Below are positions 12,692 to 48,230 of a stretch of DNA of 64,000 nucleotides, one piece after another. The notes under the pieces are model-generated. The model was not told the origin of the DNA and ran no database searches. It saw nothing but the letters and a program-made list of their open reading frames with translations. Position 1 is the stretch's first letter. Every line of letters begins with the position of its first letter. Source of the DNA: Thermoplasmatota archaeon (lineage in GTDB: Archaea > Thermoplasmatota > E2 > DHVEG-1); NCBI GenBank assembly GCA_041550515.1, contig JBFEOQ010000003.1:2537-66536 (forward strand). The letters run 5' to 3'. Made by a program: the position numbers and the translations under genes.

Positions 12692-16852
<4,161 letters not shown>

Positions 16853-16853
<1 letters not shown>

Positions 16854-18127
16854 TATTTGCCCCCCAATGCCATATTAACAATACGTGTCATATGCGTCTC
16901 GGGACCATATACATCAATTGGAATTCCTAATTCTTTTCCAAGTTCTTTCATAATGCGAAGACCTTCCTGATAGTTAGGTCCTCCTCGTCGTACATATATT
17001 TTCACATTTGTATCCTTAAGTTTCTTTTTATAATCCCGTAGTGCCATAGTAATGCCTGTAAATGTCTTTGCAACATCAGTAAAGTTTGCAATACCACCAC
17101 CAACTAGTAAGAACTTTGGTCGTCCTTTTGGATCTTTCTCACGAGTCATTAAATCAAGAATAGTTTTTGCATATTCATATGTAAGATCCGTTGTCGGATT
17201 ACCACTGTATTCACCATAATTTGCTAGTTCATCTCTGTAGCCTAAATCAACGATAGTATCAGTATAAATTACACTACCTCCACCACCTGCGACCATGGTC
17301 CAAACGCGACCTTTGGGATTTAGAACGGTGAGTTTGAGTGATGCACCACTTTTTTCATCCATTGTCTTGACATATTGTTCTTCCTTGGATAGTTTTCGTC
17401 CGAATGGTGCTGGAAATGTAAGATCTCCCCATTTTTCACTACTTTCAAAATGACCTGTATCATCAAGCCTTGCAACAAGGTCAAGTGGTATAATGTTTTT
17501 TCCAGTTACAACAAATGGATTTATTTCAAGATATGCATAGTTAAGTTCTCTGTAGAATTTGTAAAGTCCTTTAATGAATTCTGCAAACATTTTCTTATTT
17601 TGCTTCGATGTGTCTTTTGGAAGCTTGTTTTCGATATTAATTTTTTCAATGTCTTGATTAACGTTGACTTGGATTTCTGCAACTGTTTTCCAGACTGATT
17701 CGATATCTACTCCTCCGTGGTTCGAGAAGTATATTGTATCGCCTTCACGGTTGCTTTTTATTGCAACATAAAATTCTCCTTCATGAGGTATAAAAGGTTC
17801 GATGATAAAATGAGTCAATATTCCTGTTACTTTTCCGATTTTTGTTTCTTTGTTCATGTATTCTTTGATCCATTTTTTAGCTTCGGCAAAATTTACATTT
17901 GCTTTAATTAATCCATGTTTTCCACGTTTACCAAAAAGCTGATCAGGTTTTACCACTAGCTTTTCTTCTTTTAACCATTTATATTTTTTTGGAAGATCAT
18001 CAAGTTTTGTTTTTGGATCTACCAAAACAATTTTTCCAGGGAAATTAAAATCTTTACCGAAATACTCTTTCCAGTATTTAGCAAGCATTTTCTTCCCATC
18101 ATATTCTCTAATTCCTCTTTGTGCCAT
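16853..18127 (-). CDS. aclB: ATP-citrate lyase beta subunit (ATP-grasp)
   Basis: The N-terminus [15 protein letters not shown].. is ACLY-like, followed by an ATP-grasp fold and the [11 protein letters not shown] motif. I prefer the ATG at 18127, which has GAGGG upstream, over the TTG at 18142. Confidence 0.9.
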
Positions 18128-18148
18128 AATTTTTTCCCTCAATTTTTT

Positions 18149-20098
18149 TTATTTGGATTTCTCTCTCATATATGCAAGAGTACCTCCTGCAAGAATTATT
18201 TCACGTTGTCTATCTGAGAGATTATATTCTACTTCAAATTCAGTTCCTTTAGTTTTATTTTTTACCTTTAAAACTCCACCATCTTTAATTGTGTTTATTA
18301 CATCAGGTATTTCTATGTCATCCCCCTGATCGATTTTGTTATAATCAATTTCGTTTTTAAAAGTCAAAGGTATTATTCCAAAATTTATCAAGTTAGCAGT
18401 ATGAATTCTTTCAAATGATTTTGCTATGACCGCTTTTGTCCCCATATACATTGGACAAAGTGCTGCATGCTCACGAGATGAACCCTGTCCATAACTTAAT
18501 CCTGCAACAAAAATGTTGTGTTTACCACTATCTCTTATCTTTTTTGCCCTTTCATAAAATTTATCATCTATTACCTCAAATAAAAATTCTGAATATTTTG
18601 GGACATTAGATCTATATTTCATCTTACTTCCTGCAGGAATTATATGGTCTGTTGTAATTTGATCTTCTACTTTTATTGTGACTTCTCCAGTTATTTTGTC
18701 AGGCATTGGTAAACTATCGGGTGGATTACCAATATTTGGTCCCCGATAGATCTTTATTTTTTCTCCATTTTTTGGGGGATAAATAAACATAGTATCATCA
18801 ATATAAAATTTATCTGGCATTTCTACTTCTGGATATGTAATTCCTATTTTTTCTAAATCTCTAGGATCAGTCATTTTACCAGTTATAACTGCAGCCGCCG
18901 CAGTTTCTGGACTTACTAGATAAACATTTGCACTTTTTGTACCAGATCTCCCTAAAAAATTTCTATTACTTGTTCGAAGAGATATTGCTTCAGTTTTTGG
19001 AGATTGACTATTTCCGATACAAAAACCACATGCAGATTCGGCAATGCGGGCGCCGGCCGAAATCATATTTGTTAGACCACCATCTTTTTCAATATTTTGA
19101 AGTACTTGTCTTGAACCAGGTGCAATAACAAAGCTAACATTGGTATTTGTAACCTTACCATCTAGAATTTTTGCTACTCTCATAAGATCTCTGTATGAAG
19201 AGTTAGTGCAACTTCCAAGACAAACCTGATCCACTTCTATTCCTTCAAGTTCTTTTACTTTTTTTATATTTCCAGGACTATGTGGTGTAGATGCTAATGG
19301 TTCAAGTTCACTAAGATTAATTTCAACTATTTTATCGTAAATAGCATCCTCATCAGCTTTAATTTCAATCCAATCTTTTTCTCTTCCTTGTGCTTTTAAA
19401 AATTCTTTTGTTATCTCATCGCTTGGAAAAACACTTGTTGTAACACCGCATTCTGCACCCATGTTTGTAATTGTTGCTCGCTCTGGTACAGATAGTGTTT
19501 TAACCCCAGATCCTGAATATTCAAATACTGTTCCAACGTTTCCTTTTGTTGTAAATATTTCAAGTACCTTTAAAATTAAATCTTTTGCGGACACCCAGGG
19601 TTTAAGTTTACCTGTTAAATTTATTTTTGTTATTTTAGGATAGATCATATAAAATGGTCCACCAGCCATTGCAACTGCTACATCAAGACCACCTGCACCT
19701 ATTGCAATCATGCCAATTCCCCCGCCAGTTGGTGTGTGCGAATCAGAACCAAGAAGCGTTTTACCAGGTTTACCAAATCGCTCTAGATGTACTTGGTGGC
19801 ATATTCCATTTCCTCCGCGTGAATATATAATTCCATATTTTGCAGCTACACTTTGTAAGTATTTATGGTCATCAGCGTTTTCAAAGCCAATTTGTACAGT
19901 ATTATGATCAACATAGCTAACTGATAACTCTGTTTTAACTTTTGAAACATTCATCGCTTCAAATTGAAGATATGCCATCGTACCTGTTGCGTCTTGAGTA
20001 AGGGTTTGATCTATTTTTATACCTACTTCTTTACCTCTTTCAGCTTTTCCTTTTATTATATGTTTATTTAACATTTTTTCAGTTATTGTAAGTCCCAT
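18149..20098 (-). CDS. acn: Aconitate hydratase (fused large+small domain, about 650-aa type)
   Basis: Aconitase cluster and substrate motifs GSDSHT, GSCTNSS and ACGFCIGN, plus a C-terminal swivel domain. Confidence 0.9.
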   Translation of the reverse strand: MGLTITEKMLNKHIIKGKAERGKEVGIKIDQTLTQDATGTMAYLQFEAMNVSKVKTELSVSYVDHNTVQIGFENADDHKYLQSVAAKYGIIYSRGGNGICHQVHLERFGKPGKTLLGSDSHTPTGGGIGMIAIGAGGLDVAVAMAGGPFYMIYPKITKINLTGKLKPWVSAKDLILKVLEIFTTKGNVGTVFEYSGSGVKTLSVPERATITNMGAECGVTTSVFPSDEITKEFLKAQGREKDWIEIKADEDAIYDKIVEINLSELEPLASTPHSPGNIKKVKELEGIEVDQVCLGSCTNSSYRDLMRVAKILDGKVTNTNVSFVIAPGSRQVLQNIEKDGGLTNMISAGARIAESACGFCIGNSQSPKTEAISLRTSNRNFLGRSGTKSANVYLVSPETAAAAVITGKMTDPRDLEKIGITYPEVEMPDKFYIDDTMFIYPPKNGEKIKIYRGPNIGNPPDSLPMPDKITGEVTIKVEDQITTDHIIPAGSKMKYRSNVPKYSEFLFEVIDDKFYERAKKIRDSGKHNIFVAGLSYGQGSSREHAALCPMYMGTKAVIAKSFERIHTANLINFGIIPLTFKNEIDYNKIDQGDDIEIPDVINTIKDGGVLKVKNKTKGTEFEVEYNLSDRQREIILAGGTLAYMREKSK

Positions 20099-37782: not shown

Positions 37783-38550
37783 TTATTTGTTTTTCCAAAT
37801 AGGCTGTCTTTTTTCCATAAAAGCTGATAATCCTTCATTTGCATCATCAGTTTTCATTAGTTCATTAAGGTAAATATCTTCAATTTTCTTAATTGAATTT
37901 GAATAGTTTTGACTTACTCCTTCTATAAATGCTCTCTTTGTAAGTTGCATAACAACTGCACTATTACTTGCAAGTTTTTCATTAATGAACTTTTCAGCCT
38001 CAGCTTCAAATTTTTCAAATGGAAGAATATGATTAACAAGTCCAAGATCTTTCGCTTCATCTGCTTTAATTATATCACCAGTCACGATTAGCTCAAGTGC
38101 TTTTTTACTACACATGAGCTTTGGGAAAATTGCTGCTGCTACTGGTGGTATTACACCAACTTTGATTTCAGGTTGTCCAAATTTCGCTTTCTCAGAAGCA
38201 ATAACTATATCACAAAACATAGCAACTTCGCATCCTCCTCCAAGTGCTGCACCATTAACAAGTGCAACAGTTGGAGCTTTGATTTTCAGGAGATTAGTGA
38301 AAATATTATGAAAAACCTGGATCATCTCATTGACTTTTTCTTTTGTATGATCAGATATATCAACACCAGCTGAGAATGCTTTACCATCTGCATCAATAAT
38401 AAGAACTTTCAAATAACGACCTTGAAATTCTTCCAATGCCTGATTTATCTCCTTCATCATTTCGATATTCAGAACATTTAAAGGTGGTTTATTGAATGTG
38501 ATTCTACCAATCATATCTTTTTCTTCTACAAGTATTGTCTTATAACCCAC
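37783..38550 (-). CDS. dch: Crotonase-family hydratase, cyclohexa-1,5-diene-1-carbonyl-CoA hydratase (Dch/BamR)-like
   Basis: 255 aa. KPPLNVL, KAFSAGVDISDH, KFGQPEIKVGVIPPVAA and the C-terminal YLNELM..DDANEGLSAFMEKR match my recollection of Dch-type hydratases. It sits 9 nt downstream of the had-like gene. Confidence 0.7.
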   Translation of the reverse strand: MGYKTILVEEKDMIGRITFNKPPLNVLNIEMMKEINQALEEFQGRYLKVLIIDADGKAFSAGVDISDHTKEKVNEMIQVFHNIFTNLLKIKAPTVALVNGAALGGGCEVAMFCDIVIASEKAKFGQPEIKVGVIPPVAAAIFPKLMCSKKALELIVTGDIIKADEAKDLGLVNHILPFEKFEAEAEKFINEKLASNSAVVMQLTKRAFIEGVSQNYSNSIKKIEDIYLNELMKTDDANEGLSAFMEKRQPIWKNK

Positions 38551-38559
38551 AATCTCACC

Positions 38560-39732
38560 TCATAAAATATTAATGGTTGCTCTTCCAAGGATCTTCCCGG
38601 CTTCCAAATCATGTATCGCATTTTCTAATCTATCAAGAGTATAATTCTTATTTGTAACAAGTAAATTAAGATCAATAATTCCGTCCTCTACAGCCTTTAC
38701 ATTTTCTTCCATTTCATTCATTGGACAAGCCCATGTTCCATTAATTGTAAGATATTTATCCATGATTTTCTGATTCAAAAATTCTTTTACGGGTTTAGGT
38801 GGCCACCCAACTTGAATAACAGTACGATTCTTGCTTGTTGTTTCCACAGCTACTGGAAATGTATCTGGTACACCCGAGCAATCAAGTACACAATCGACCT
38901 GGAATTTATCCTCTGCTAAATTTGAAGATATATGTCTAGCTAGTCCGGATATTGCTTTTGCTTTATCTCGTCCACTAAGCTCATTTATTATGATATTGTT
39001 CTCCTCAAAATAGGTTTTAGAATTTACTGTATGTGTAGCTCCAAGATCTTTAGCAAACTTAAGCTTATTGTCAAAAATATCAACAGCTACCACGTTTTTT
39101 GCTTGGAAATATTTAGCTGCAAGGTTTACAGATGGTCCACCAACACCACCAACTCCAAAGACAACTACATTTTTTCCATTAAGCCAATGAGTGTTACGAT
39201 CTAACAATTTATTCGAATTTGACGAGTTTTGGATTATATGTAAAGGAATAGATCTACTTTTCAATGCATGAAATGGTGTTGAAACAGCATCTGGAATAAT
39301 ACATGCCTCGTCTAAAGGTACATTATTTTTAATCTTGAAAGTATATTTTGAGGGAACAGCGATTAATTCCGCATCACCACCATTTACTCCATGTCCAATA
39401 AAAACAGAATTCTTACATCTATTTGTCAATCCTTCTCTACAAGAAGGACAATTTTCATCATCACATCCTGGATATACAGGAGGAATAATTACATGGTCAC
39501 CAACTTCTAAACCTTTAGCAGATTTACCAAGATCCTCCACAATACCTGCGATTTCATGACCTATAATAAGCGGTGGTTTAAATGGAACAAAACCACGATA
39601 TAGTGTACGGTCTGTACTGCATAATCCTACATTTTTTGATTTAATTAAAACATCGGATTCATTAACAATTGGATCATCATAATCAGTGACAATATTCAGC
39701 TCTTCTTTTCCATATAAAACTGCAGCTTTCAT
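38560..39732 (-). CDS. had: Zn-dependent MDR alcohol dehydrogenase, 6-hydroxycyclohex-1-ene-1-carbonyl-CoA dehydrogenase (Had)-like
   Basis: 390 aa. GHEIAG, a structural-zinc Cys cluster CDDENCPSCREGLTNRC and the Rossmann motif GVGGVGG. The role is inferred from the dch/oah neighbours. Confidence 0.7.
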   Translation of the reverse strand: MKAAVLYGKEELNIVTDYDDPIVNESDVLIKSKNVGLCSTDRTLYRGFVPFKPPLIIGHEIAGIVEDLGKSAKGLEVGDHVIIPPVYPGCDDENCPSCREGLTNRCKNSVFIGHGVNGGDAELIAVPSKYTFKIKNNVPLDEACIIPDAVSTPFHALKSRSIPLHIIQNSSNSNKLLDRNTHWLNGKNVVVFGVGGVGGPSVNLAAKYFQAKNVVAVDIFDNKLKFAKDLGATHTVNSKTYFEENNIIINELSGRDKAKAISGLARHISSNLAEDKFQVDCVLDCSGVPDTFPVAVETTSKNRTVIQVGWPPKPVKEFLNQKIMDKYLTINGTWACPMNEMEENVKAVEDGIIDLNLLVTNKNYTLDRLENAIHDLEAGKILGRATINIL

Positions 39733-39870
39733 ATCTTTCCCCCGGTTTTTGTGATATAATGAAGAGTATATAATATTATTTATTTTTAAGATATGAAGAT
39801 ATTAAAAAAGATATAAATAATATTGACCTTATTCAGCTCTACAATTGTTATGATAAGGGAGGATTGAAAA
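39733..39870. promoter_or_regulatory. Divergent had-dch / oah promoter region with three AAGATAT direct repeats
   Basis: A 138-bp spacer. AAGATAT occurs at 39788-39794, 39796-39802 and 39808-39814. GGGAGG lies upstream of the oah ATG. Confidence 0.4.
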
Positions 39871-41013
39871 ATGTCATTAGATTGGTTACCAAGAGATAAT
39901 GAAATAAAAAATCATGATTTATGGGGCAAAGAATATTTTAGTAAGGAACCTCCAAGTGTAATTTATGAATTAAAACCTGTAATTGATTCTGAAGGAAACA
40001 AAGTAAAAGGACTAAATTCTGCTTGGATTATATTAAACAATCCAACTCAATATAACTCTTATACTACAGATATGACAAAAGGAGTAATTGCAGGCTTTCA
40101 AAAAGCATCTATGGATCGCAGTGTTGTAGCAGCAGTATTTACTGCGGTAGGAGATAAAGCATTTTGTACAGGTGGGAATACAAAAGAATACGCTGAATAC
40201 TATAGTAGTCGACCTAATGAATATGGTTTATACATGGATTTATTCAATGCTATGGTCGATGGAATCCTAAATTGTAAGAAACCAACAATTTGCCGAGTAA
40301 ATGGTATGCGAGTCGCAGGTGGACAAGAAATAGGAATGGCCTGTGATATAGCTATTTCCTCAGATTTAGCGATATTTGGACAAGCAGGTCCCAGACATGG
40401 CTCTGCACCAGATGGAGGTTCTACTGATTTTCTACCATGGTTTTTAGGAATCGAGGATGCAATGTGGAACTGCATATCTTGTGAATTATGGTCGGCATAT
40501 AAAACTAAAAGATTAGGACTCATTAGCAAAGTTGTTCCAGTACTAAAAAAGGGTAACAAATTCATAAGAAACCCAACAGTTATAACTGATAAATACATAG
40601 AAGATGGTGAAATCGTTTATGGTAATTTTCTTAGAGGAGATGAGTTCAAAAAATCAAGAGAGATCATAAAATCTACACCTTCTGATTTTACATTGCTTGA
40701 TAAAGAAGTCGATAAAATCATATGGACTTATACCAATCTTATGCCCGGTTGCTTAATTAAATCCATTGATGGAATCAGATTGAAAAAAAAGTATTTTTGG
40801 GATCAGACAAAACTTGCAAATCGTCACTGGCTTGCAGCTAACATGCAAACTGAAGCTTTCCTTGGATTTAATGCTTTTAACAATAAAAAATTAACCGGAA
40901 AAGACGTTATTGATTTCGTAAAATACAGACAACTAATCGCAGAAGGCCAGCAATTTGATGATGAATTAATCGAGGCAGTTTTACCAAAACCTGTAAAAAA
41001 AAGTAAATCTTAA
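39871..41013 (+). CDS. bamA: 6-oxocyclohex-1-ene-1-carbonyl-CoA hydrolase (ring-cleaving Oah/BamA)
   Basis: A 380-aa atypical crotonase. It contains QYNSYTT (40048-40068) and GQEIGM (40321-40338). To my recollection these are the conserved blocks targeted by the degenerate bamA marker primers. It also carries FCTGGNTKEYAEYY and FGQAGPRHGSAPDGG. Confidence 0.85.
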   Translation: MSLDWLPRDNEIKNHDLWGKEYFSKEPPSVIYELKPVIDSEGNKVKGLNSAWIILNNPTQYNSYTTDMTKGVIAGFQKASMDRSVVAAVFTAVGDKAFCTGGNTKEYAEYYSSRPNEYGLYMDLFNAMVDGILNCKKPTICRVNGMRVAGGQEIGMACDIAISSDLAIFGQAGPRHGSAPDGGSTDFLPWFLGIEDAMWNCISCELWSAYKTKRLGLISKVVPVLKKGNKFIRNPTVITDKYIEDGEIVYGNFLRGDEFKKSREIIKSTPSDFTLLDKEVDKIIWTYTNLMPGCLIKSIDGIRLKKKYFWDQTKLANRHWLAANMQTEAFLGFNAFNNKKLTGKDVIDFVKYRQLIAEGQQFDDELIEAVLPKPVKKSKS

Positions 41014-42600: not shown

Positions 42601-43344
42601 CTAAATATATTGACCGCCATCAACTTTGACAACTTCCCCTGTTATGTGTCGTGATTTTTCACTGCATAAGAAAACAACAACATTAGCGATATCCTCAGTT
42701 GTTGCAATACGTCCTAAAACAGTTTCATCAACTGCTTTTTGTAAAAACTCTGGTGGTATTTTCTTAGCCATCTCTGTCATTACCATACCTGGTGCTAAAG
42801 CATTAACGTTAACGTTGAATTTGCCAACTTCTTTAGCAAGTGCTTTCGTTAGAGCGATTATTCCTCCTTTTGAAGCAGAATAATTGGTTTGACCAAATTT
42901 CCCTCTTAATCCATTAATGGATGTGACGTTTACAATTTTTCCAGAACGTTTTCTTTTAAAATGTTCAGCTGCAAGTTTGTTGTATATAAAGTATCCTTTG
43001 AGATTCACATTAATAACATTATCCCAATCTGCTTCGCTCATCTTCCAAATAACACGATCTTTGTTTATACCAGCGTTACATACAAGGATGTCTAAACCAC
43101 CAAATTCTTTTATTGTCTTTTTGAACATTGCCTCTGCATCATTATAATTCGTAACATCTGCTTTTATTACTAGACATTTTTTTCCTAATTTCTCAATCTT
43201 TTTTGCTACTGTTTTTGCTTCGATATCATGTTTTCTATAGTTGATTGCGACATTGGTACCTGCGCGAGCAAGTTCAACTGCGATGGTTGCACCGATTCCT
43301 ATACTACCACCTGTAATAATAGCTGATTTATCTTTTAATTCCAT
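42601..43344 (-). CDS. Short-chain dehydrogenase/reductase (FabG-like 3-oxo/3-hydroxyacyl reductase)
   Basis: TGGSIGIG, NAG and the YSASK catalytic motif. The start is taken at ATG 43344 (MELKDKSAIITGG). Confidence 0.9.
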   Translation of the reverse strand: MELKDKSAIITGGSIGIGATIAVELARAGTNVAINYRKHDIEAKTVAKKIEKLGKKCLVIKADVTNYNDAEAMFKKTIKEFGGLDILVCNAGINKDRVIWKMSEADWDNVINVNLKGYFIYNKLAAEHFKRKRSGKIVNVTSINGLRGKFGQTNYSASKGGIIALTKALAKEVGKFNVNVNALAPGMVMTEMAKKIPPEFLQKAVDETVLGRIATTEDIANVVVFLCSEKSRHITGEVVKVDGGQYI

Positions 43345-43481
43345 TCGATAAGTCTCCAACAATTTAAAATCGGTAGCAATTCTCATATTATTTTAGTTTT
43401 GGGTAAGTATGAGATTATAAAAAGGTTTAAATATAAAATTTTAATGACTATAATATAGCTATAATGTAGCTGGGGATTATT

Positions 43482-43633: not shown

Positions 43634-44080
43634 ATGAACAAAATAAAAGTAAGACCTATGGAAGTAGAAGATATTACCCAGGCAGCTGACATTCATCGTA
43701 GGGTTGTTAGAAAAGGTCTTGGTCCAAGTACAAACTATCCAATTGAAAACCTGTTTAAATCTTTTATTAAAAAGAGCCCTAAAACTTGTATTGTAGCTGA
43801 AAAGGATAACAGAATTGCTGGTTTTGTTATTGGTAGTATAAAAGAATGGGTATTTGGTGTTGAACGTTCCGGTTGGATAGAGTTGGTTGAGGTTGATCCC
43901 AAACTTATGGGAATGGGTATTGGTAAAAATCTTGGAGATTCTTTAATCGAACATTTTCGAGATGAAGATATAAAAGAGGTTTATACTTCAGTAAAATGGG
44001 ATAGTGGAGATTTAATTGCTTTTTTCAAATCAATAGGACTTTATAAGAGTAGTTTTATAAACCTTGAAAGGGGGTTGTAA
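43634..44080 (+). CDS. GNAT family acetyltransferase
   Basis: 148 aa. Acetyl-CoA motif MGMGIGKNLGDSL. It overlaps the following reductase gene by 17 nt. Confidence 0.8.
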   Translation: MNKIKVRPMEVEDITQAADIHRRVVRKGLGPSTNYPIENLFKSFIKKSPKTCIVAEKDNRIAGFVIGSIKEWVFGVERSGWIELVEVDPKLMGMGIGKNLGDSLIEHFRDEDIKEVYTSVKWDSGDLIAFFKSIGLYKSSFINLERGL

Positions 44081-45212
44081 CATAGAATTAGTTCAAGAAT
44101 TTAAAAAATGGGAAAAAAATAGACACAATTATGCAAAAGAATGGAAAAATAAGACAGGTGGAAAAGTCATTGGGTACTTTTGTACCTATGTACCTGAAGA
44201 AATATTGTATGCTGCAGGTATACTGCCTGTACGGATTTTAGGTAGTCATGAACCGCAGGATGTAACTGAGCCTCATATTTTTGGTATGTTTTGTCCTTTC
44301 TGCAGGGATTGTCTTGCCCAAGGACTCAAGAATAGATATAATTATCTTGATGGTCTTATGATTGCGCAATCGTGTCTACATATCAGGCAAGCGTATACTA
44401 GTTGGATTAAACATAGACCAGTAGAATTTGAAAAATTTCTTTGTATGCCACATAAGGTTCAAAGCCCACATGCCTATGAGTTCCTAACTGAGGAATACAA
44501 GGTTTTTAAGAAAGAAGTGGAAAATTGGACTGGTAAAAAAATAACAGATAAGGACTTGGAAAATGCAATAGAAATTTATAATGAGAACCGTCGTCTAATG
44601 AGACAGCTATATGATCTACGGAAACGTGACAAACCGCCTGTTACTGGTGAGGAAGTTATGGAAATTGTTATTGCTATGCAAATGATGGATAAAGCAGAAC
44701 ATAACAAAATATTAAAAGAAACCTTAGCGAGGCTAGAGAACTATACTCCAGATAGGGAAACTGGTAGCCGATTAATGATCCTTGGGTCTGAGGATGATGA
44801 TACTGTTTTTATGAATATGGTTGAGAATTGTGGTGCCACATTTGTAATAGATGATCATTGCACTGGAACTCGTTATTTTTGGAATGAAGTAGAAAACGGT
44901 AAAGATCCTCTTGCATCTATTGCTGCTAGATATATAAATAGAATTCCTTGCCCTTCAAAAGATTGGGAGGAACGAAAGAGAATTCCACATATTTTAACCC
45001 TATGTAAAGAATGGAACGTTGATGGTGTCATCATAATGCAACAGAAATTCTGCGATCCACATGAACTCGACTTTGTCGCAATAAAAAAAGCATTGGAAGA
45101 TGTTGGTATACCTACATTATTTCTAGAATTTGATGTAACAGTACCAATTGGACAGTTTAAAATCCGAGTGGAAGCTTTTCTTGAAATGATTGGTGAGGAG
45201 GATCTATTTTAG
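44064..45212 (+). CDS. bzdN: Benzoyl-CoA reductase gamma-type subunit (BcrC/BadD/BzdN family)
   Basis: 382 aa. [23 protein letters not shown] and the rest of the HgdB/BcrC-family fold. It is the first of four reductase genes in gamma-beta-delta-alpha order. TTG start, so the start is uncertain. Confidence 0.8.
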
Positions 45213-45219
45213 GAGGTGA
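45211..45219 (+). promoter_or_regulatory. Shine-Dalgarno-like site AGGAGGTGA, 7 nt upstream of the bzdO-like ATG
   Basis: Read directly from the sequence. Similar GGAGG-type motifs precede the genes at 47361 (AAGGAGGT, 47346-47353) and 48245 (GGAGGAT, 48234-48240). Confidence 0.6.
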
Positions 45220-45226
45220 AAATTAT

Positions 45227-46567
45227 ATGGAGCAAGAAGAATTATATCCCACTGAAAAATTAAAATGCTGGAACAAAGCAAAAGAAATCCGTATGAAATT
45301 TTACCAGGATTATGCAGAGGCACATGACAAAGGTGGATTACGATGGGCAGGTGGTGCATGGACCTTTGATGCTATTCCTGCAGGTCTGGGTGATGATGTT
45401 TTTCCTATTACAAGTGAGCCATATAGTGCTACAATTGCATTTGACAAAGAACTTTCTTTAGAATGTATGGAAGCTACTGAAATAAAAGGCTACCCTCGTG
45501 ATCTTTGTTCTTATATGCGCAATTACTGGGGCTCTATCATTACTGACAAATTTGCATTTGGATACAAAGATGGAAAGTTTGTTCCTAGATTTGAGGGTGT
45601 GAAACCAATAGGTTTTCCAAAACCTGATTTTATATGGCAAGATCACATCTGTTGTTCACATGCAAAATGGTATCAAGTAGTATCAGATTTGGAAGGGGGA
45701 ATTCCTATGTATTCAGTGGATAACGCAGTTGGACCTTCACATGAACTTACTGATAGTAAGATTAAATATGTCGTAGAACAACTAAAAGATGGTATAAAAT
45801 TCCTGGAAAAGACTACAGGTAGAGATTACGACGATGAGCTAATGTATAAAGCGATTAGAAATCATTTTATATCAACATCGAAATGGGCTGAGACCTGTGA
45901 ATTGAATAAAGCTATTCCAGCACCCTTAGATGAAAAATCAATTTACTCATTGTATGTCCTTGGAACTCTACAAAAATCAGGGAAAAAAGTAGCAGATTTT
46001 TATGAAAAAGATCTCCTCCCCGAAGTACAGGACCGAGTAAAAAAAGGTATAGCAGCAGTTCCTAATGAAAAATTTAGGGTAATGTCAGATACACAACCTC
46101 CATGGAGTTTCCTGAGTATATTTAGATATCTTGAGAAATTTGGATGTGTTAGTATAGGTTCCCTTTATACCTTTGGACTCATTGGTCAATGGGAAGTAAA
46201 AAAGGATGGTACATGGGGTGCAAAAACCATACCTGATGTAGAGTTTACTAGCCGCGATCAAGCACTTTATGAATATGTTAAATATGAACTTCATAAACCT
46301 GAATGGCAGCATTTCTACTCCTGCCATTTTAAGAGTGATATGATGATACGAATCGCTAAAGAGTGGAAACTTAATGGCGTCATGCTTCACTATAACAGAG
46401 GTTGCGAAGGATTAACCGTAGGTATCGCAGAGAATAGACTTGCTCTTCTTGAAGCAGGTTTCCCAGTTATGGCATTTGAAGGAAATAATGCTGATGAAAG
46501 GGAATTTGATGAAAATCGAACAAAGGCTAAAATAAATGCATTTATGGAAACCCTTGGAGCAAAATAG
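45227..46567 (+). CDS. bzdO: Benzoyl-CoA reductase beta-type subunit (BcrB/BadE/BzdO family)
   Basis: 446 aa. [31 protein letters not shown] and [11 protein letters not shown] are typical of BcrB-family proteins. Confidence 0.8.
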
Positions 46568-46579
46568 GAGATAAGAAAT

Positions 46580-47359
46580 ATGATAACTATGGGTATTGAT
46601 TTAGGTGCAAAATATATCAAAGTAATAATTTTGAAGGACATCAAGATTATTGCAAAGACAAATGTTCTTGCAGGATTTGATGTAGAAAAAAGCGCACAGT
46701 TGGCAGTAGATAAAGCGCTTAAGGAAGCTGGTATTAAAAAGGATGACTTGAATAAAGTTGTATCTACGGGTGTAGGTGAAAAACTTGCTCCTTTTTATGA
46801 TGAAACCAGGTCTACCGTTGGCTGTGACTCATTAGGAGCTGTATATCTTCATCCTAATGCCAGAAGTGTTATCGATGTTGGTGCTGAAGAAGGCCGTGGA
46901 ATGAGGTGTGATGAAACTGGCAAAATTATCGATTTTGAAGTAAATGAAAAATGCGCAGCAGGGGCAGGAGCATTTACAGAAGCTATGTCTCGGGCACTTG
47001 AAGTTCCTCTTGAGGAATTAGGTGCTCTTTCTTTGAAATCTACTGAGGAAATCCCTATGAATGCACAGTGTACTGTATTTGCGGAATCAGAGGTTGTAAC
47101 CATGGTTCATAATAAGGTTTCTAAAGCTAATATGGCCAGAGCAGTTCATGATGCAATGGCAAGTCGAATAACATCAATGATCAGAAAAATAGGTTTCGAT
47201 AAAGACGTAGTACTAGTAGGTGGTGTTGCAAATAATGTGGGCTTCATTGACTCACTTAACAATGATCTTGGACTTAAAGTAGTTGTACCAGAAGATCCTG
47301 AATATGTTGGAGCACTAGGTGCAGCTTTAGCAGCCGCAGGATGGAAAGGAGGTAAATAA
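46580..47359 (+). CDS. bzdP: Benzoyl-CoA reductase ATPase subunit, delta-type (BcrD/BadG/BzdP family)
   Basis: 259 aa, BcrAD_BadFG ATPase. GIDLGAKYIKV, the cluster-ligand region NEKCAAGAGAF and CTVFAESE. Confidence 0.8.
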   Translation: MITMGIDLGAKYIKVIILKDIKIIAKTNVLAGFDVEKSAQLAVDKALKEAGIKKDDLNKVVSTGVGEKLAPFYDETRSTVGCDSLGAVYLHPNARSVIDVGAEEGRGMRCDETGKIIDFEVNEKCAAGAGAFTEAMSRALEVPLEELGALSLKSTEEIPMNAQCTVFAESEVVTMVHNKVSKANMARAVHDAMASRITSMIRKIGFDKDVVLVGGVANNVGFIDSLNNDLGLKVVVPEDPEYVGALGAALAAAGWKGGK

Positions 47360-47360
47360 T

Positions 47361-48230
47361 ATGACACAAAAAACCGAATTTTGGAGATGGACTGAATCCA
47401 GATGGACCAATCCAGATCTTGATTGGAAAGGAAAAGTCGTGACATCTGGTATAGATGTAGGATCAGTTAGCTCACAAGCAGTCATTCTTGCTGATGGTAA
47501 ACTCTATGCTTACTCTAATATGAGAACGGGTTCAGACAGCCCAGATTCAGCAATGAAGGCAATAAATTGGGCTATGGAAAAAACAGGGTTAACTCTTGAA
47601 GATCTCACTTATACAGTAGGTACAGGTTATGGCAGAGTAAACGTACCATTTAGCCAACGTGCTATTACCGAAATCGCGTGTCATGCCCGTGGTGCAAACT
47701 TCATTTATGGTCCAAGTGTACGAACTGTTCTTGACATGGGTGGTCAGGATTGTAAGGCTATACATTGTGATGAGCGTGGGAAAGTTACAAACTTCCTCAT
47801 GAACGACAAATGTGCAGCAGGAACAGGCAGAGGTATGGAGGTATTTGCAGACTTATTGGGTGTATCCATTAATGATGTTGGTGATCTTTCACTTGAGGTA
47901 GAAAAAGAACCTCAACCAGTTAGCAGTACTTGTGTTGTATATGCAAAAACTGAAGCTACAGGTTTACTTAGAGAAGGTTGGCCAAAAAACAAGGTACTAG
48001 CTGCTTATTGTTCTGCTATGGCTCATAGGATTATGACCCTTCTTGAAAGAATAGGTGTAGAGAAAGACTTTGCTATAACAGGTGGAATAGCCAAAAACAA
48101 GGGAGTAGTCACAAGGCTTGAGAAAGAAGTTGGAATACCGATAATGAAAACCGATTTTGACACACAAATTGCTGGTGCTCTTGGTGCAGCTCTTTTTGCA
48201 AAAGCACTTGTTGATAAGGGTAAAAAATAG
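47361..48230 (+). CDS. bzdQ: Benzoyl-CoA reductase ATPase subunit, alpha-type (BcrA/BadF/BzdQ family)
   Basis: 289 aa. A second, non-identical BcrAD_BadFG ATPase with a roughly 30-aa N-terminal extension. GIDVGSVSSQ, NDKCAAGTGRG and CVVYAKTE. Confidence 0.8.
   Translation: MTQKTEFWRWTESRWTNPDLDWKGKVVTSGIDVGSVSSQAVILADGKLYAYSNMRTGSDSPDSAMKAINWAMEKTGLTLEDLTYTVGTGYGRVNVPFSQRAITEIACHARGANFIYGPSVRTVLDMGGQDCKAIHCDERGKVTNFLMNDKCAAGTGRGMEVFADLLGVSINDVGDLSLEVEKEPQPVSSTCVVYAKTEATGLLREGWPKNKVLAAYCSAMAHRIMTLLERIGVEKDFAITGGIAKNKGVVTRLEKEVGIPIMKTDFDTQIAGALGAALFAKALVDKGKK

What the first reader, a model, noticed from the sequence alone, without database searches (positions are those of the whole stretch)
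37783..41013. Complete dienoyl-CoA ring-opening triad (dch-had divergent from oah/bamA), with the bamA marker motifs intact
**Seen.** A 255-aa crotonase and a 390-aa Zn-ADH form a minus-strand pair 9 nt apart. They are divergent from a 380-aa atypical crotonase.

The 380-aa protein contains QYNSYTT and GQEIGM. To my recollection these are the peptide blocks encoded by the widely used degenerate bamA primers. It also carries FCTGGNTKEYAEYY.

The small crotonase shows FSAGVDISDH, KFGQPEIKVGVIPPVAA and a YLNELM...EGLSAFMEKR tail, as I recall for Dch.

**Established.** Dch, Had and Oah convert cyclohexa-1,5-diene-1-carbonyl-CoA to 3-hydroxypimelyl-CoA in all non-Rhodopseudomonas benzoyl-CoA pathways.

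**Inference.** Their presence argues that the neighbouring reductase really acts on an aromatic ring.
Basis: partly seen in the sequence, partly recalled or inferred. Interest (0 to 1): 0.6.

Follow-up and report, generated by a model that had tools for sequence, protein, structure and literature searches.

The report
Archaeal ring-opening genes, odd dehydrogenase
A sediment archaeon (Marine Benthic Group D) carries the three-gene set that opens the ring after benzoyl-CoA reduction. This pathway is already published for the lineage, so the find is sound but ordinary. The one twist is that its middle enzyme is a lineage-specific alcohol dehydrogenase lying outside the known Had family.

Summary
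All three ORFs, the 9-nt gap, the 138-nt divergent spacer and every quoted peptide motif are present.

**The three proteins**
- **380-aa protein:** a clear Oah/BamA. It scores 574 bits on TIGR03200 (cutoff 464) and is 70% identical to the Aromatoleum enzyme.
- **255-aa crotonase:** it fails the Dch model TIGR03189 (166 vs 292.5 bits). The yardstick BzdW of Aromatoleum also fails (172), as do all 19 other oah-linked crotonases tested. The crotonase is 47% identical to BzdW. Of its 48 homologues, 38 lie within 2.5 kb of oah. It is very probably a Bzd-type dienoyl-CoA hydratase.
- **390-aa Zn-ADH:** not a canonical Had.
  - It scores 116 vs 338.65 bits on TIGR03201.
  - It lies outside the 100/100-supported Had clade, on a long stem, and carries three insertions.
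  - Its full-length relatives above 50% identity are all Thermoplasmata.
  - The oah / adh-ech unit is nevertheless conserved across the lineage, even where the flanks differ.
  - One of its nearest outside relatives sits in an adh-crotonase-oah operon.

It is the best candidate for the Had step (about 65%).

**Verdict:** the triad reading is partly supported.

The parts
37783..38550 (-). 255-aa crotonase; BzdW-type cyclohexa-1,5-diene-1-carbonyl-CoA hydratase (Dch) candidate
   Evidence: Pfam ECH_1, 189 bits. Both crotonase catalytic Glu positions are present: E108 in GGGCE and E128 in GQPE. 47% identity over 245 aa to the Aromatoleum toluvorans crotonase that sits directly upstream of had and oah. 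38 of 48 homologues lie within 2.5 kb of oah. TIGR03189 gives 166.2 bits against a cutoff of 292.5. The yardstick fails equally, at 172.2 bits.
38551..38559 (-). 9-nt spacer with a GGTGA ribosome-binding site; adh and ech form one operon
   Evidence: The sequence reads TGA-GGTGAGATT-GTG. The same adh-ech order and tight spacing recur in L005-L007, L087 and L088.
38560..39732 (-). 390-aa Zn-dependent medium-chain alcohol dehydrogenase; non-canonical candidate for the Had step
   Evidence: Pfam ADH_N plus ADH_zinc_N. Retained features: catalytic Zn ligands C38, H59, E60, D148; structural Zn cysteines C90, C95, C98, C106; GVGGVG; Asp219 in VAVDIFD, which suggests NAD+ use. Three insertions: 2 aa in the Zn lobe, residues ~161-183, and residues ~250-278. 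The AF2 model has pLDDT 94.4 and the inserts are helical. TIGR03201 gives 116.2 bits against a cutoff of 338.65. The protein lies outside the canonical Had clade.
39733..39870 (.). 138-nt AT-rich divergent promoter spacer between adh-ech and oah
   Evidence: Read. GGAGG lies 8 nt before the oah ATG. The AAGATAT repeats noted in an earlier finding are visible.
39871..41013 (+). 380-aa 6-oxocyclohex-1-ene-1-carbonyl-CoA hydrolase (Oah/BamA)
   Evidence: TIGR03200 gives 574.3 bits against a cutoff of 464.45, covering model positions 1-360 of 360. Identity to Oah in 80 species is 66-87%, including Aromatoleum toluvorans at 70%. Homologues are named 6-oxocyclohex-1-ene-1-carbonyl-CoA hydratase/hydrolase by NCBI and JGI.
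42601..43386 (-). 261-aa SDR (context); probably the next-step 3-hydroxypimelyl-CoA dehydrogenase, and an alternative Had candidate
   Evidence: FabG-like, 274 bits. Homologues of 50-60% identity lie directly beside oah in about 25 loci. Of 42 loci with at least 5 kb on both sides of oah, 7 hold this SDR together with a canonical Had.
44064..48230 (+). BzdN, BzdO, BzdP-like and BzdQ subunits of class I benzoyl-CoA reductase (context)
   Evidence: TIGR03190: 489 vs 454 bits. TIGR03191: 607 vs 449 bits. TIGR03192: 434.5 vs 380 bits.

Best explanation
This is the ring-modification and ring-opening module of an archaeal (Marine Benthic Group D / Thermoprofundales) Bzd-type benzoyl-CoA pathway. The proposed steps are:
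1. BzdNOPQ, 3 kb downstream, reduces benzoyl-CoA to cyclohexa-1,5-diene-1-carbonyl-CoA.
2. [quoted passage not shown]
3. The co-transcribed 390-aa NAD+-type Zn alcohol dehydrogenase oxidises the 6-hydroxyl to the 6-oxo compound.
4. The divergently transcribed 380-aa Oah/BamA adds water and cleaves the ring hydrolytically, giving 3-hydroxypimelyl-CoA.
5. The flanking SDR, thiolases, the fused 3-hydroxyacyl-CoA dehydrogenase/crotonase and the acyl-CoA dehydrogenase carry this to acetyl-CoA.

Shown here: the family identity of Oah, the orthology of the crotonase to BzdW, and the conserved three-gene unit.

Inferred: all substrate assignments, and especially the Had role of the dehydrogenase. That protein is a lineage-specific, insertion-bearing Zn-ADH and not a member of the canonical Had family.

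My step-wise confidence is about 0.95 for Oah, 0.85 for Dch and 0.65 for Had.
For: **Oah**
- Passes its equivalog cutoff.
- 70% identical to the Aromatoleum enzyme.

**Crotonase**
- Nests among oah-adjacent crotonases from at least 10 phyla.

**Conserved unit**
- The oah / adh-ech unit is conserved in Thermoplasmata loci L005-L007.
- It also occurs in L087, where the flanking genes are entirely different. There Oah is 71% and the ADH 72% identical to the window's proteins.
- L088 shows the same adh-ech pair.

**Relatives of the ADH**
- The clade's sister group is P0244/P0245/P0250 (support 86/89).
- Each of these three genes is followed by a crotonase-fold gene.
- P0250 stands in an adh-crotonase-oah operon. 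Its Oah scores 508.6 bits on TIGR03200.

**ADH chemistry and placement**
- It keeps all catalytic and structural Zn ligands and an NAD-type Rossmann motif.
- TIGR03201 is among its five best models.
- TIGR03201 is the best model for 4 of its 10 nearest outside relatives.
- A sister position to canonical Had is not rejected (AU p = 0.43).

**Pathway bookkeeping**
- The route to acetyl-CoA needs three secondary-alcohol oxidations.
- The cluster holds exactly three dehydrogenases: the Zn-ADH, the SDR and the HCDH domain.

**Reductase and expression**
- BzdN, BzdO and BzdQ pass their cutoffs.
- Short contigs from four sediment metatranscriptomes match adh, ech and oah.

**Literature**
- A PCL-plus-BCR aromatic pathway in Thermoprofundales is published: Liu et al. 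2020, as cited in PMC10581246 and PMC8329499.
Against: **Against the Had assignment**
- The ADH scores 116 vs 338.65 bits on the Had model and is not that model's top hit.
- It is only 26-30% identical to oah-adjacent canonical Had proteins.
- The canonical clade excludes it with 100/100 support.
- The solved Thauera Had (7QUL/7QUY) ranks 25th and 30th by sequence and 10th and 19th by fold, no better than generic ADHs.

**Open alternatives**
- Two other dehydrogenases in the cluster could oxidise a beta-hydroxyacyl-CoA.

**Weak points in the other evidence**
- The crotonase fails TIGR03189.
- To my knowledge BzdW itself was assigned by similarity and operon position, not by assay.
- The RNA evidence is a handful of 150-260-nt contigs. 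DNA carry-over cannot be excluded.
- No enzyme from this lineage has been assayed.
Confidence: 0.7

Rival explanations
1. The Had step is carried out by another dehydrogenase of the cluster: the 261-aa SDR at 42601-43386 (BadH-like logic) or the HCDH domain of the 679-aa fusion protein. The 390-aa Zn-ADH would then oxidise a different alcohol. Candidates are an aromatic or alicyclic alcohol feeding the pathway together with the nearby AOR-type aldehyde oxidoreductase, or a substituted ring intermediate.
For: - SDR homologues of 50-60% identity sit directly next to oah in about 25 loci. Several of these show no Zn-ADH within 10 kb, for example Latescibacteria and TA06.
- The ADH is no closer to Had than to generic ADHs.
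- An AOR-family gene with an Fe-S partner lies in the same region.
Against: - The SDR co-occurs with a canonical Had in 7 of 42 well-flanked loci. It co-occurs with Had-like ADHs in 3 more. It therefore has a role of its own, most simply 3-hydroxypimelyl-CoA oxidation.
- The ADH is translationally linked to the Dch-type crotonase.
- It stays with ech and oah when all other neighbours change.
- Its relative P0250 also sits in an adh-ech-oah operon.
- The AOR lies about 13 kb away, in another operon.
Confidence: 0.2
2. The three genes act on a related but different alicyclic CoA ester. Examples are ring intermediates from substituted (methyl- or hydroxy-) benzoyl-CoA, or a reversed, fermentative cyclohexane-carboxylate route. 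The divergent dehydrogenase would reflect altered substrate specificity.
For: - The ADH has a long stem (1.76 changes per site) and three structured insertions.
- The lineage is reported to feed on phenylacetate-type substrates.
Against: - Oah is 66-87% identical to enzymes of ordinary benzoate degraders and well above its equivalog cutoff.
- BzdNOQ are standard.
- Nothing in the cluster points to a substituent-handling enzyme.
Confidence: 0.07
3. The adjacency is accidental or the genes are decaying, so no functional triad exists.
For: None beyond the failed Dch and Had cutoffs.
Against: - The ORFs are intact and have ribosome-binding sites.
- More than 100 homologues of 71-93% identity have unchanged length.
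- Synteny is conserved.
- Catalytic residues are conserved.
- Transcript fragments are detected.
Confidence: 0.03

Closest known systems
bzdW-bzdX-bzdY (Dch-Had-Oah) of the bzd cluster of Aromatoleum/Azoarcus, seen here as A. toluvorans Td21, locus L044
   Same: - Same three protein folds: crotonase, Zn-ADH and long crotonase.
- Same association with BzdNOPQ.
- Oah is 70% identical and the crotonase 47% identical.
   Different: - Gene order is dch-had-oah on one strand in Aromatoleum. Here had-dch is divergent from oah.
- Aromatoleum Had scores 621.6 bits on TIGR03201. The window's ADH scores 116 bits, is 28% identical and has three insertions.
[quoted passage not shown]
   Same: - Same fold (TM 0.78).
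- The catalytic and structural Zn ligand positions kept across the alignment with canonical Had proteins are present here.
- Canonical Had proteins (Aromatoleum and others) carry an insertion at the same site after the second Rossmann strand region.
   Different: - Only 24% identity.
- It ranks below many generic ADHs by sequence and by fold.
- The window protein is about 35 residues longer.
BamR-BamQ-BamA of Geobacter metallireducens and Syntrophus aciditrophicus, and Dch/Had/Oah of the archaeon Ferroglobus placidus (Schmid et al. 2015, cited in PMC6500515)
   Same: The same three reactions are proposed. BamA is the accepted functional marker, and its primer peptides are intact here.
   Different: - Those enzymes were assayed; these were not.
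- The window's bamA DNA mismatches the marker primers at 10 of 40 positions.
Sub-threshold 'Had-like' Zn-ADH family (about 340 aa) of Bacteroidota, Ignavibacteriota, Latescibacteria, Acidobacteriota and Bathyarchaeota, which JGI often names Had
   Same: - Linked to oah at 1-9 kb in L009, L011, L026, L058 and L001.
- TIGR03201 is the best model but scores below cutoff: 267 bits for L011, 231-269 bits for P0251 and P0248.
- Falls in the same weakly supported grouping as the window's ADH and canonical Had.
   Different: - 30-35% identity.
- No insertions.
- The window's clade is separated by a very long stem.

Membership tests
Oah/BamA (TIGR03200, 6-oxocyclohex-1-ene-1-carbonyl-CoA hydrolase) | Whole-protein score at or above the curated equivalog cutoff, with full-length model coverage | tested here: met
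   574.3 bits against a cutoff of 464.45; model positions 1-360 of 360.
Oah/BamA (TIGR03200, 6-oxocyclohex-1-ene-1-carbonyl-CoA hydrolase) | About 380-aa crotonase with a C-terminal extension and the conserved blocks QYNSYTT and GQEIGM targeted by the bamA primers | tested here: met
   380 aa; motifs at residues 60 and 151. Primers taken from PMC3794298 and translated.
Oah/BamA (TIGR03200, 6-oxocyclohex-1-ene-1-carbonyl-CoA hydrolase) | Groups with Oah of known benzoate degraders rather than with other long crotonases | tested here: met
   66-87% identity to 80 Oah loci, including Aromatoleum toluvorans. In the tree it sits with Thermoplasmata Oah at 98* support, inside the Oah set. The next-best model is BadI, at only 108 bits.
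Oah/BamA (TIGR03200, 6-oxocyclohex-1-ene-1-carbonyl-CoA hydrolase) | Hydrolytic ring cleavage of 6-oxocyclohex-1-ene-1-carbonyl-CoA to 3-hydroxypimelyl-CoA | not testable with these tools
   Needs an enzyme assay.
Dch (TIGR03189, cyclohexa-1,5-diene-1-carbonyl-CoA hydratase) | Score at or above the curated equivalog cutoff | tested here: not met
   166.2 bits against 292.5. The test does not discriminate. Aromatoleum BzdW scores 172.2. All 19 other oah-linked crotonases tested are at or below 246.6 bits.
Dch, BzdW type | Orthology to the crotonase encoded directly upstream of had and oah in a bzd cluster | tested here: met
   47% identity over 245 aa to L044:7944-8723. That gene precedes a Had of 621.6 bits and an Oah.
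Dch, BzdW type | Crotonase fold with both catalytic glutamates of enoyl-CoA hydratases | tested here: met
   ECH_1 at 189 bits. E108 in GGGCE and E128 in GQPE. The residue roles come from established knowledge of rat enoyl-CoA hydratase.
Dch, BzdW type | Conserved neighbourhood with oah | tested here: met
   38 of 48 homologues lie within 2.5 kb of oah.
[quoted passage not shown] | Score at or above the curated equivalog cutoff | tested here: not met
   116.2 bits against 338.65, and fifth in the list. Yardsticks: Aromatoleum 621.6 bits, L040 478.8 bits.
[quoted passage not shown] | Falls inside the clade of oah-adjacent Zn-ADHs | tested here: not met
   The canonical clade (17 or 36 rows) has 100/100 support and excludes it. 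A sister position is not rejected (AU p = 0.43).
[quoted passage not shown] | Zn-dependent medium-chain ADH fold with catalytic and structural Zn ligands and an NAD+ site | tested here: met
   Residues C38, H59, E60, D148; C90, C95, C98, C106; GVGGVG; Asp219. The AF2 model matches Zn-ADHs at TM 0.75-0.80.
[quoted passage not shown] | Encoded next to dch and oah | tested here: met
   9 nt from the crotonase and 138 nt from oah. Conserved in L005-L007, L087 and L088.
[quoted passage not shown] | [quoted passage not shown] | not testable with these tools
   Needs an enzyme assay.
Bzd-type class I benzoyl-CoA reductase (context) | BzdN, BzdO and BzdQ equivalog cutoffs | tested here: met
   489.2 vs 453.8, 607 vs 448.6, and 434.5 vs 380.2 bits.

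The most novel reading that the evidence does not exclude
- The family would consist of insertion-bearing Zn-ADHs that neither TIGR03201 nor KEGG-style rules recognise.
- 'had missing' calls in archaeal and candidate-phylum genomes would then be annotation artefacts.
- The two structured insertions (residues ~161-183 and ~250-278) would be lineage-specific elements for binding the CoA ester or for oligomerisation.
Probability: 0.5. Interest if true: 0.4.

Novelty: new member of a known kind. Interest (0 to 1): 0.3.

Why it matters
**Ecological reading.** The module supports the published view that Marine Benthic Group D archaea can degrade aromatic compounds through benzoyl-CoA. These archaea are among the most abundant in marine sediments.

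**Three practical points**
- **HMM cutoffs.** The Dch cutoff (TIGR03189) misses Bzd-type and most oah-linked hydratases. The Had cutoff (TIGR03201) misses this lineage's dehydrogenase. Pathway-completeness calls based on these cutoffs will under-report the ring-opening steps.
- **PCR surveys.** The bamA peptide motifs are intact, but the AT-rich archaeal gene mismatches the standard SP9/ASP1 primers at 10 of 40 positions. PCR surveys probably miss these archaea.
- **Enzymology.** The dehydrogenase is a clean target for testing whether a second Zn-ADH lineage has taken over the Had reaction.

Tried and rejected
- **Whole-genome search for a canonical Dch or Had.** The genome search and the fetch from genomes were closed, so this was not done.
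- **TIGR03189 as a Dch test.** Rejected as uninformative. The Aromatoleum yardstick and all other oah-linked crotonases tested fail it too.
- **Fold comparison of an AF2 model of the ADH with the PDB.**
  - The model itself is good (pLDDT 94.4).
  - All Zn-ADHs match at TM 0.75-0.80.
  - Thauera Had ranks 10th and 19th, so fold does not discriminate.
- **PDB sequence searches.** The crotonase and Oah give only generic crotonases and MenB.
- **SDR as the true Had.** Considered and down-weighted, because it co-occurs with canonical Had in 7 well-flanked loci.
- **Metatranscriptome support.**
  - Only short contigs were recovered.
  - Some are identical to the window and some 90-97% alike.
  - This is enough to say transcripts or relatives exist, not enough for operon structure or expression level.
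- **Liu et al. 2020 (Environ Microbiol 22:329).** The key paper on aromatic degradation in Thermoprofundales is not held. Its content is known to me only through citing papers.
- **Deep placement of the ADH.** It stayed unresolved: support of 84/48 for the wider grouping, and AU p = 0.43 for sisterhood with Had.


Full report
**1. Observation**

- a 255-aa crotonase at 37783-38550 on the minus strand, with a GTG start;
- a 390-aa Zn-ADH at 38560-39732 on the minus strand;
- a 380-aa long crotonase at 39871-41013 on the plus strand.

The two minus-strand genes are 9 nt apart. A GGTGA ribosome-binding site lies in that gap. The divergent spacer is 138 nt and AT-rich. All quoted peptide blocks are present. 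Pfam confirms ECH_1, ADH_N plus ADH_zinc_N, and ECH_1.

This is correct. The SP9F and ASP1R primers printed in PMC3794298 translate to those peptides.

**2. Organism and setting**

- The window has about 32% G+C.
- It encodes an archaeal DnaG primase.
- All close homologues of the three proteins come from Thermoplasmatales/Thermoplasmata metagenome bins, including the SG8-52 bins.
- Three kb downstream lie BzdN, BzdO, a BzdP-like subunit and BzdQ. Three of these pass their equivalog cutoffs.
- The flanks hold two thiolases, a DUF35-type partner, an SDR, a fused 3-hydroxyacyl-CoA dehydrogenase/crotonase and an acyl-CoA dehydrogenase.

**3. The 380-aa protein is Oah/BamA**

- It scores 574.3 bits on TIGR03200 (cutoff 464.45) over the whole model. 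The next family, BadI, reaches 108 bits.
- A scan of one genome per species found 565 relatives. The best 80 are 66-87% identical and include Aromatoleum toluvorans at 70%.
- In a tree it sits with the Thermoplasmata sequences (98*). Its next neighbours are a Hodarchaeota sequence and various bacteria. Bathyarchaeia Oah lies elsewhere.

**4. The 255-aa crotonase is very probably a Bzd-type Dch, but the proposed HMM test cannot show it**

- It scores 166.2 bits on TIGR03189 (cutoff 292.5), slightly below a generic crotonase model.
- I used as yardstick the crotonase of Aromatoleum toluvorans. That gene stands directly upstream of a Had scoring 621.6 bits and of Oah. It scores only 172.2 bits.
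- Nineteen further oah-linked crotonases from many phyla all stay at or below 246.6 bits. The cutoff is simply too narrow.
- Positive evidence:
  - 47% identity over 245 residues to the Aromatoleum protein, including the FSAGV.I.DHT, KFGQPEIK.GV.PP.AA and YL.ELM..DDA.EGL.AF.EKR blocks;
  - both crotonase catalytic glutamates, E108 and E128;
  - 38 of its 48 homologues in the fetched loci lie within 2.5 kb of oah.

**5. The 390-aa Zn-ADH is not a canonical Had**

- It scores 116.2 bits on TIGR03201 (cutoff 338.65), fifth in its list.
- A search of 1.84 billion 50%-identity representatives found one full-length cluster of relatives, all from this archaeal lineage. The next hit drops to 39% identity and 183 bits. 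Only 18 proteins fall below E = 1e-30 (names).
- Oah-adjacent Zn-ADHs of 36 loci form a 100*-supported clade that includes Aromatoleum and Bathyarchaeia. The window's clade lies outside it on a stem of 1.2-1.8 changes per site.
- The solved Thauera aromatica Had (7QUL/7QUY) ranks 25th and 30th by sequence and 10th and 19th by fold, no better than generic ADHs.
- The protein nevertheless looks fully functional:
  - catalytic Zn ligands C38, H59, E60, D148;
  - four structural-Zn cysteines;
  - GVGGVG and an Asp typical of NAD+ enzymes.
- It has three insertions relative to its relatives. The two long ones are confidently modelled as helical elements (pLDDT 94.4 overall).

**6. Why it is still the best Had candidate**

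- *Conserved unit.* The unit oah / adh-ech is kept in all Thermoplasmata loci examined (L005-L007).
  - It is also kept in L087, whose other neighbours are completely different (a pectinesterase-like gene and a methyltransferase among others).
  - There Oah and the ADH have diverged in step, to 71% and 72% identity.
  - L088 shows the same adh-ech pair next to the fusion protein and a thiolase.
- *Sister group.* In the careful tree the clade's sister group is P0244/P0245/P0250 (86/89).
  - All three genes are followed by a crotonase-fold gene.
  - P0250 stands in an adh-crotonase-oah operon. Its Oah passes TIGR03200 at 508.6 bits and is 63% identical to the window's.
- *Had-related radiation.* TIGR03201 is the best model for 4 of the 10 nearest outside relatives.
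  - A broad Had-like family of about 340 aa is linked to oah in Bacteroidota, Ignavibacteriota, Acidobacteriota and Latescibacteria. It falls in the same weakly supported grouping (84/48) as canonical Had and the window's clade.
  - An AU test does not reject sisterhood with canonical Had (p = 0.43).
- *Pathway bookkeeping.* The route from dienoyl-CoA to acetyl-CoA needs three secondary-alcohol oxidations: Had, 3-hydroxypimelyl-CoA and 3-hydroxybutyryl-CoA. The cluster offers three dehydrogenases.

**7. The main rival**

- The SDR at 42601-43386 has homologues of 50-60% identity directly beside oah in about 25 loci. Some of these show no Zn-ADH within 10 kb.
- It could be a BadH-like replacement for Had.
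- Among 42 loci with at least 5 kb on both sides of oah, however, the SDR co-occurs with canonical Had in 7 and with Had-like ADHs in 3.
- Its simplest role is therefore the next step, oxidation of 3-hydroxypimelyl-CoA. I give this rival about 0.2.

**8. Expression**

- Four sediment metatranscriptomes contain short contigs matching adh (all four runs), ech, oah, the fusion gene, a thiolase and a bzd subunit.
- Some contigs are identical to the window and others are 90-97% alike.
- This is weak evidence. It is compatible with in-situ transcription, but DNA carry-over cannot be excluded.

**9. Comparison and novelty**

- The module works like BzdW-BzdX-BzdY of Aromatoleum/Azoarcus and like Dch-Had-Oah of Thauera, Geobacter, Syntrophus and Ferroglobus.
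- Membership is shown for Oah, well supported for a BzdW-type Dch, and not met for Had.
- Aromatic degradation through CoA ligases and benzoyl-CoA reductase in Thermoprofundales is already published: Liu et al. 2020, cited in PMC10581246 and PMC8329499. The paper itself is not held.
- NCBI already names the Oah homologues.
- Another agent reached the same verdict on a related genome (e1-3333362).
- What is new here is modest: the Had slot is filled by a lineage-specific, insertion-bearing Zn-ADH, and the Dch and Had equivalog cutoffs are poor tests outside the classical degraders.

**10. Limits**

- No sequences of the assayed Geobacter, Syntrophus or Ferroglobus enzymes were available for direct comparison.
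- All substrate assignments are inferences.

Noticed in passing
window 39871-41013 (primer sites at codons 60-67 and 150-156): The bamA peptide motifs are intact. The AT-rich DNA mismatches the standard primers SP9F at 6 of 22 positions and ASP1R at 4 of 18. The predicted amplicon is 292 bp. PCR-based bamA surveys would probably miss this archaeal lineage.
   Followed up: partly
L001/L002 13990-20304 (Latescibacteria bacterium DG_63, LJNC01000013.1): A radical-SAM/NifB-like gene, two NifH-like genes and two NifD/K-like genes lie between an oah-SDR-thiolase-crotonase block and a Had-like Zn-ADH. All are on one strand. No benzoyl-CoA reductase genes appear in the 21 kb. This is a nitrogenase-like reductase embedded in a ring-cleavage operon.
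   Followed up: no
window 42601-43386 (-): A FabG-like SDR has homologues of 50-60% identity immediately next to oah in about 25 loci from many phyla, with or without a canonical Had. This is a conserved, unnamed fourth partner of the ring-opening genes, probably 3-hydroxypimelyl-CoA dehydrogenase.
   Followed up: partly
L089 4025-7335: A 38% G+C contig carries an operon of Zn-ADH (P0250, 361 aa), an unusual 353-aa crotonase (best model only 80 bits) and a bona fide Oah (508.6 bits). It also holds a thioredoxin-reductase-like gene with intein-domain hits. It looks like a second, independent non-canonical ring-opening set.
   Followed up: partly
L012, L073, L081: Oah is also present in Hodarchaeota (Asgard) and Bathyarchaeia contigs. 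The Bathyarchaeia copies sit with a canonical Had and lie apart from the Thermoplasmata Oah in the tree. This suggests separate acquisitions in different archaeal phyla.
   Followed up: partly
Their conservation in related loci was not examined.
   Followed up: no
window 12692-20098 (-): Genes for a monomeric NADP isocitrate dehydrogenase, an ATP-citrate-lyase-like or citryl-CoA synthetase/lyase-like pair (633 and 429 aa) and an aconitase stand in one row, upstream of an acetyl-CoA synthetase gene.
   Followed up: no
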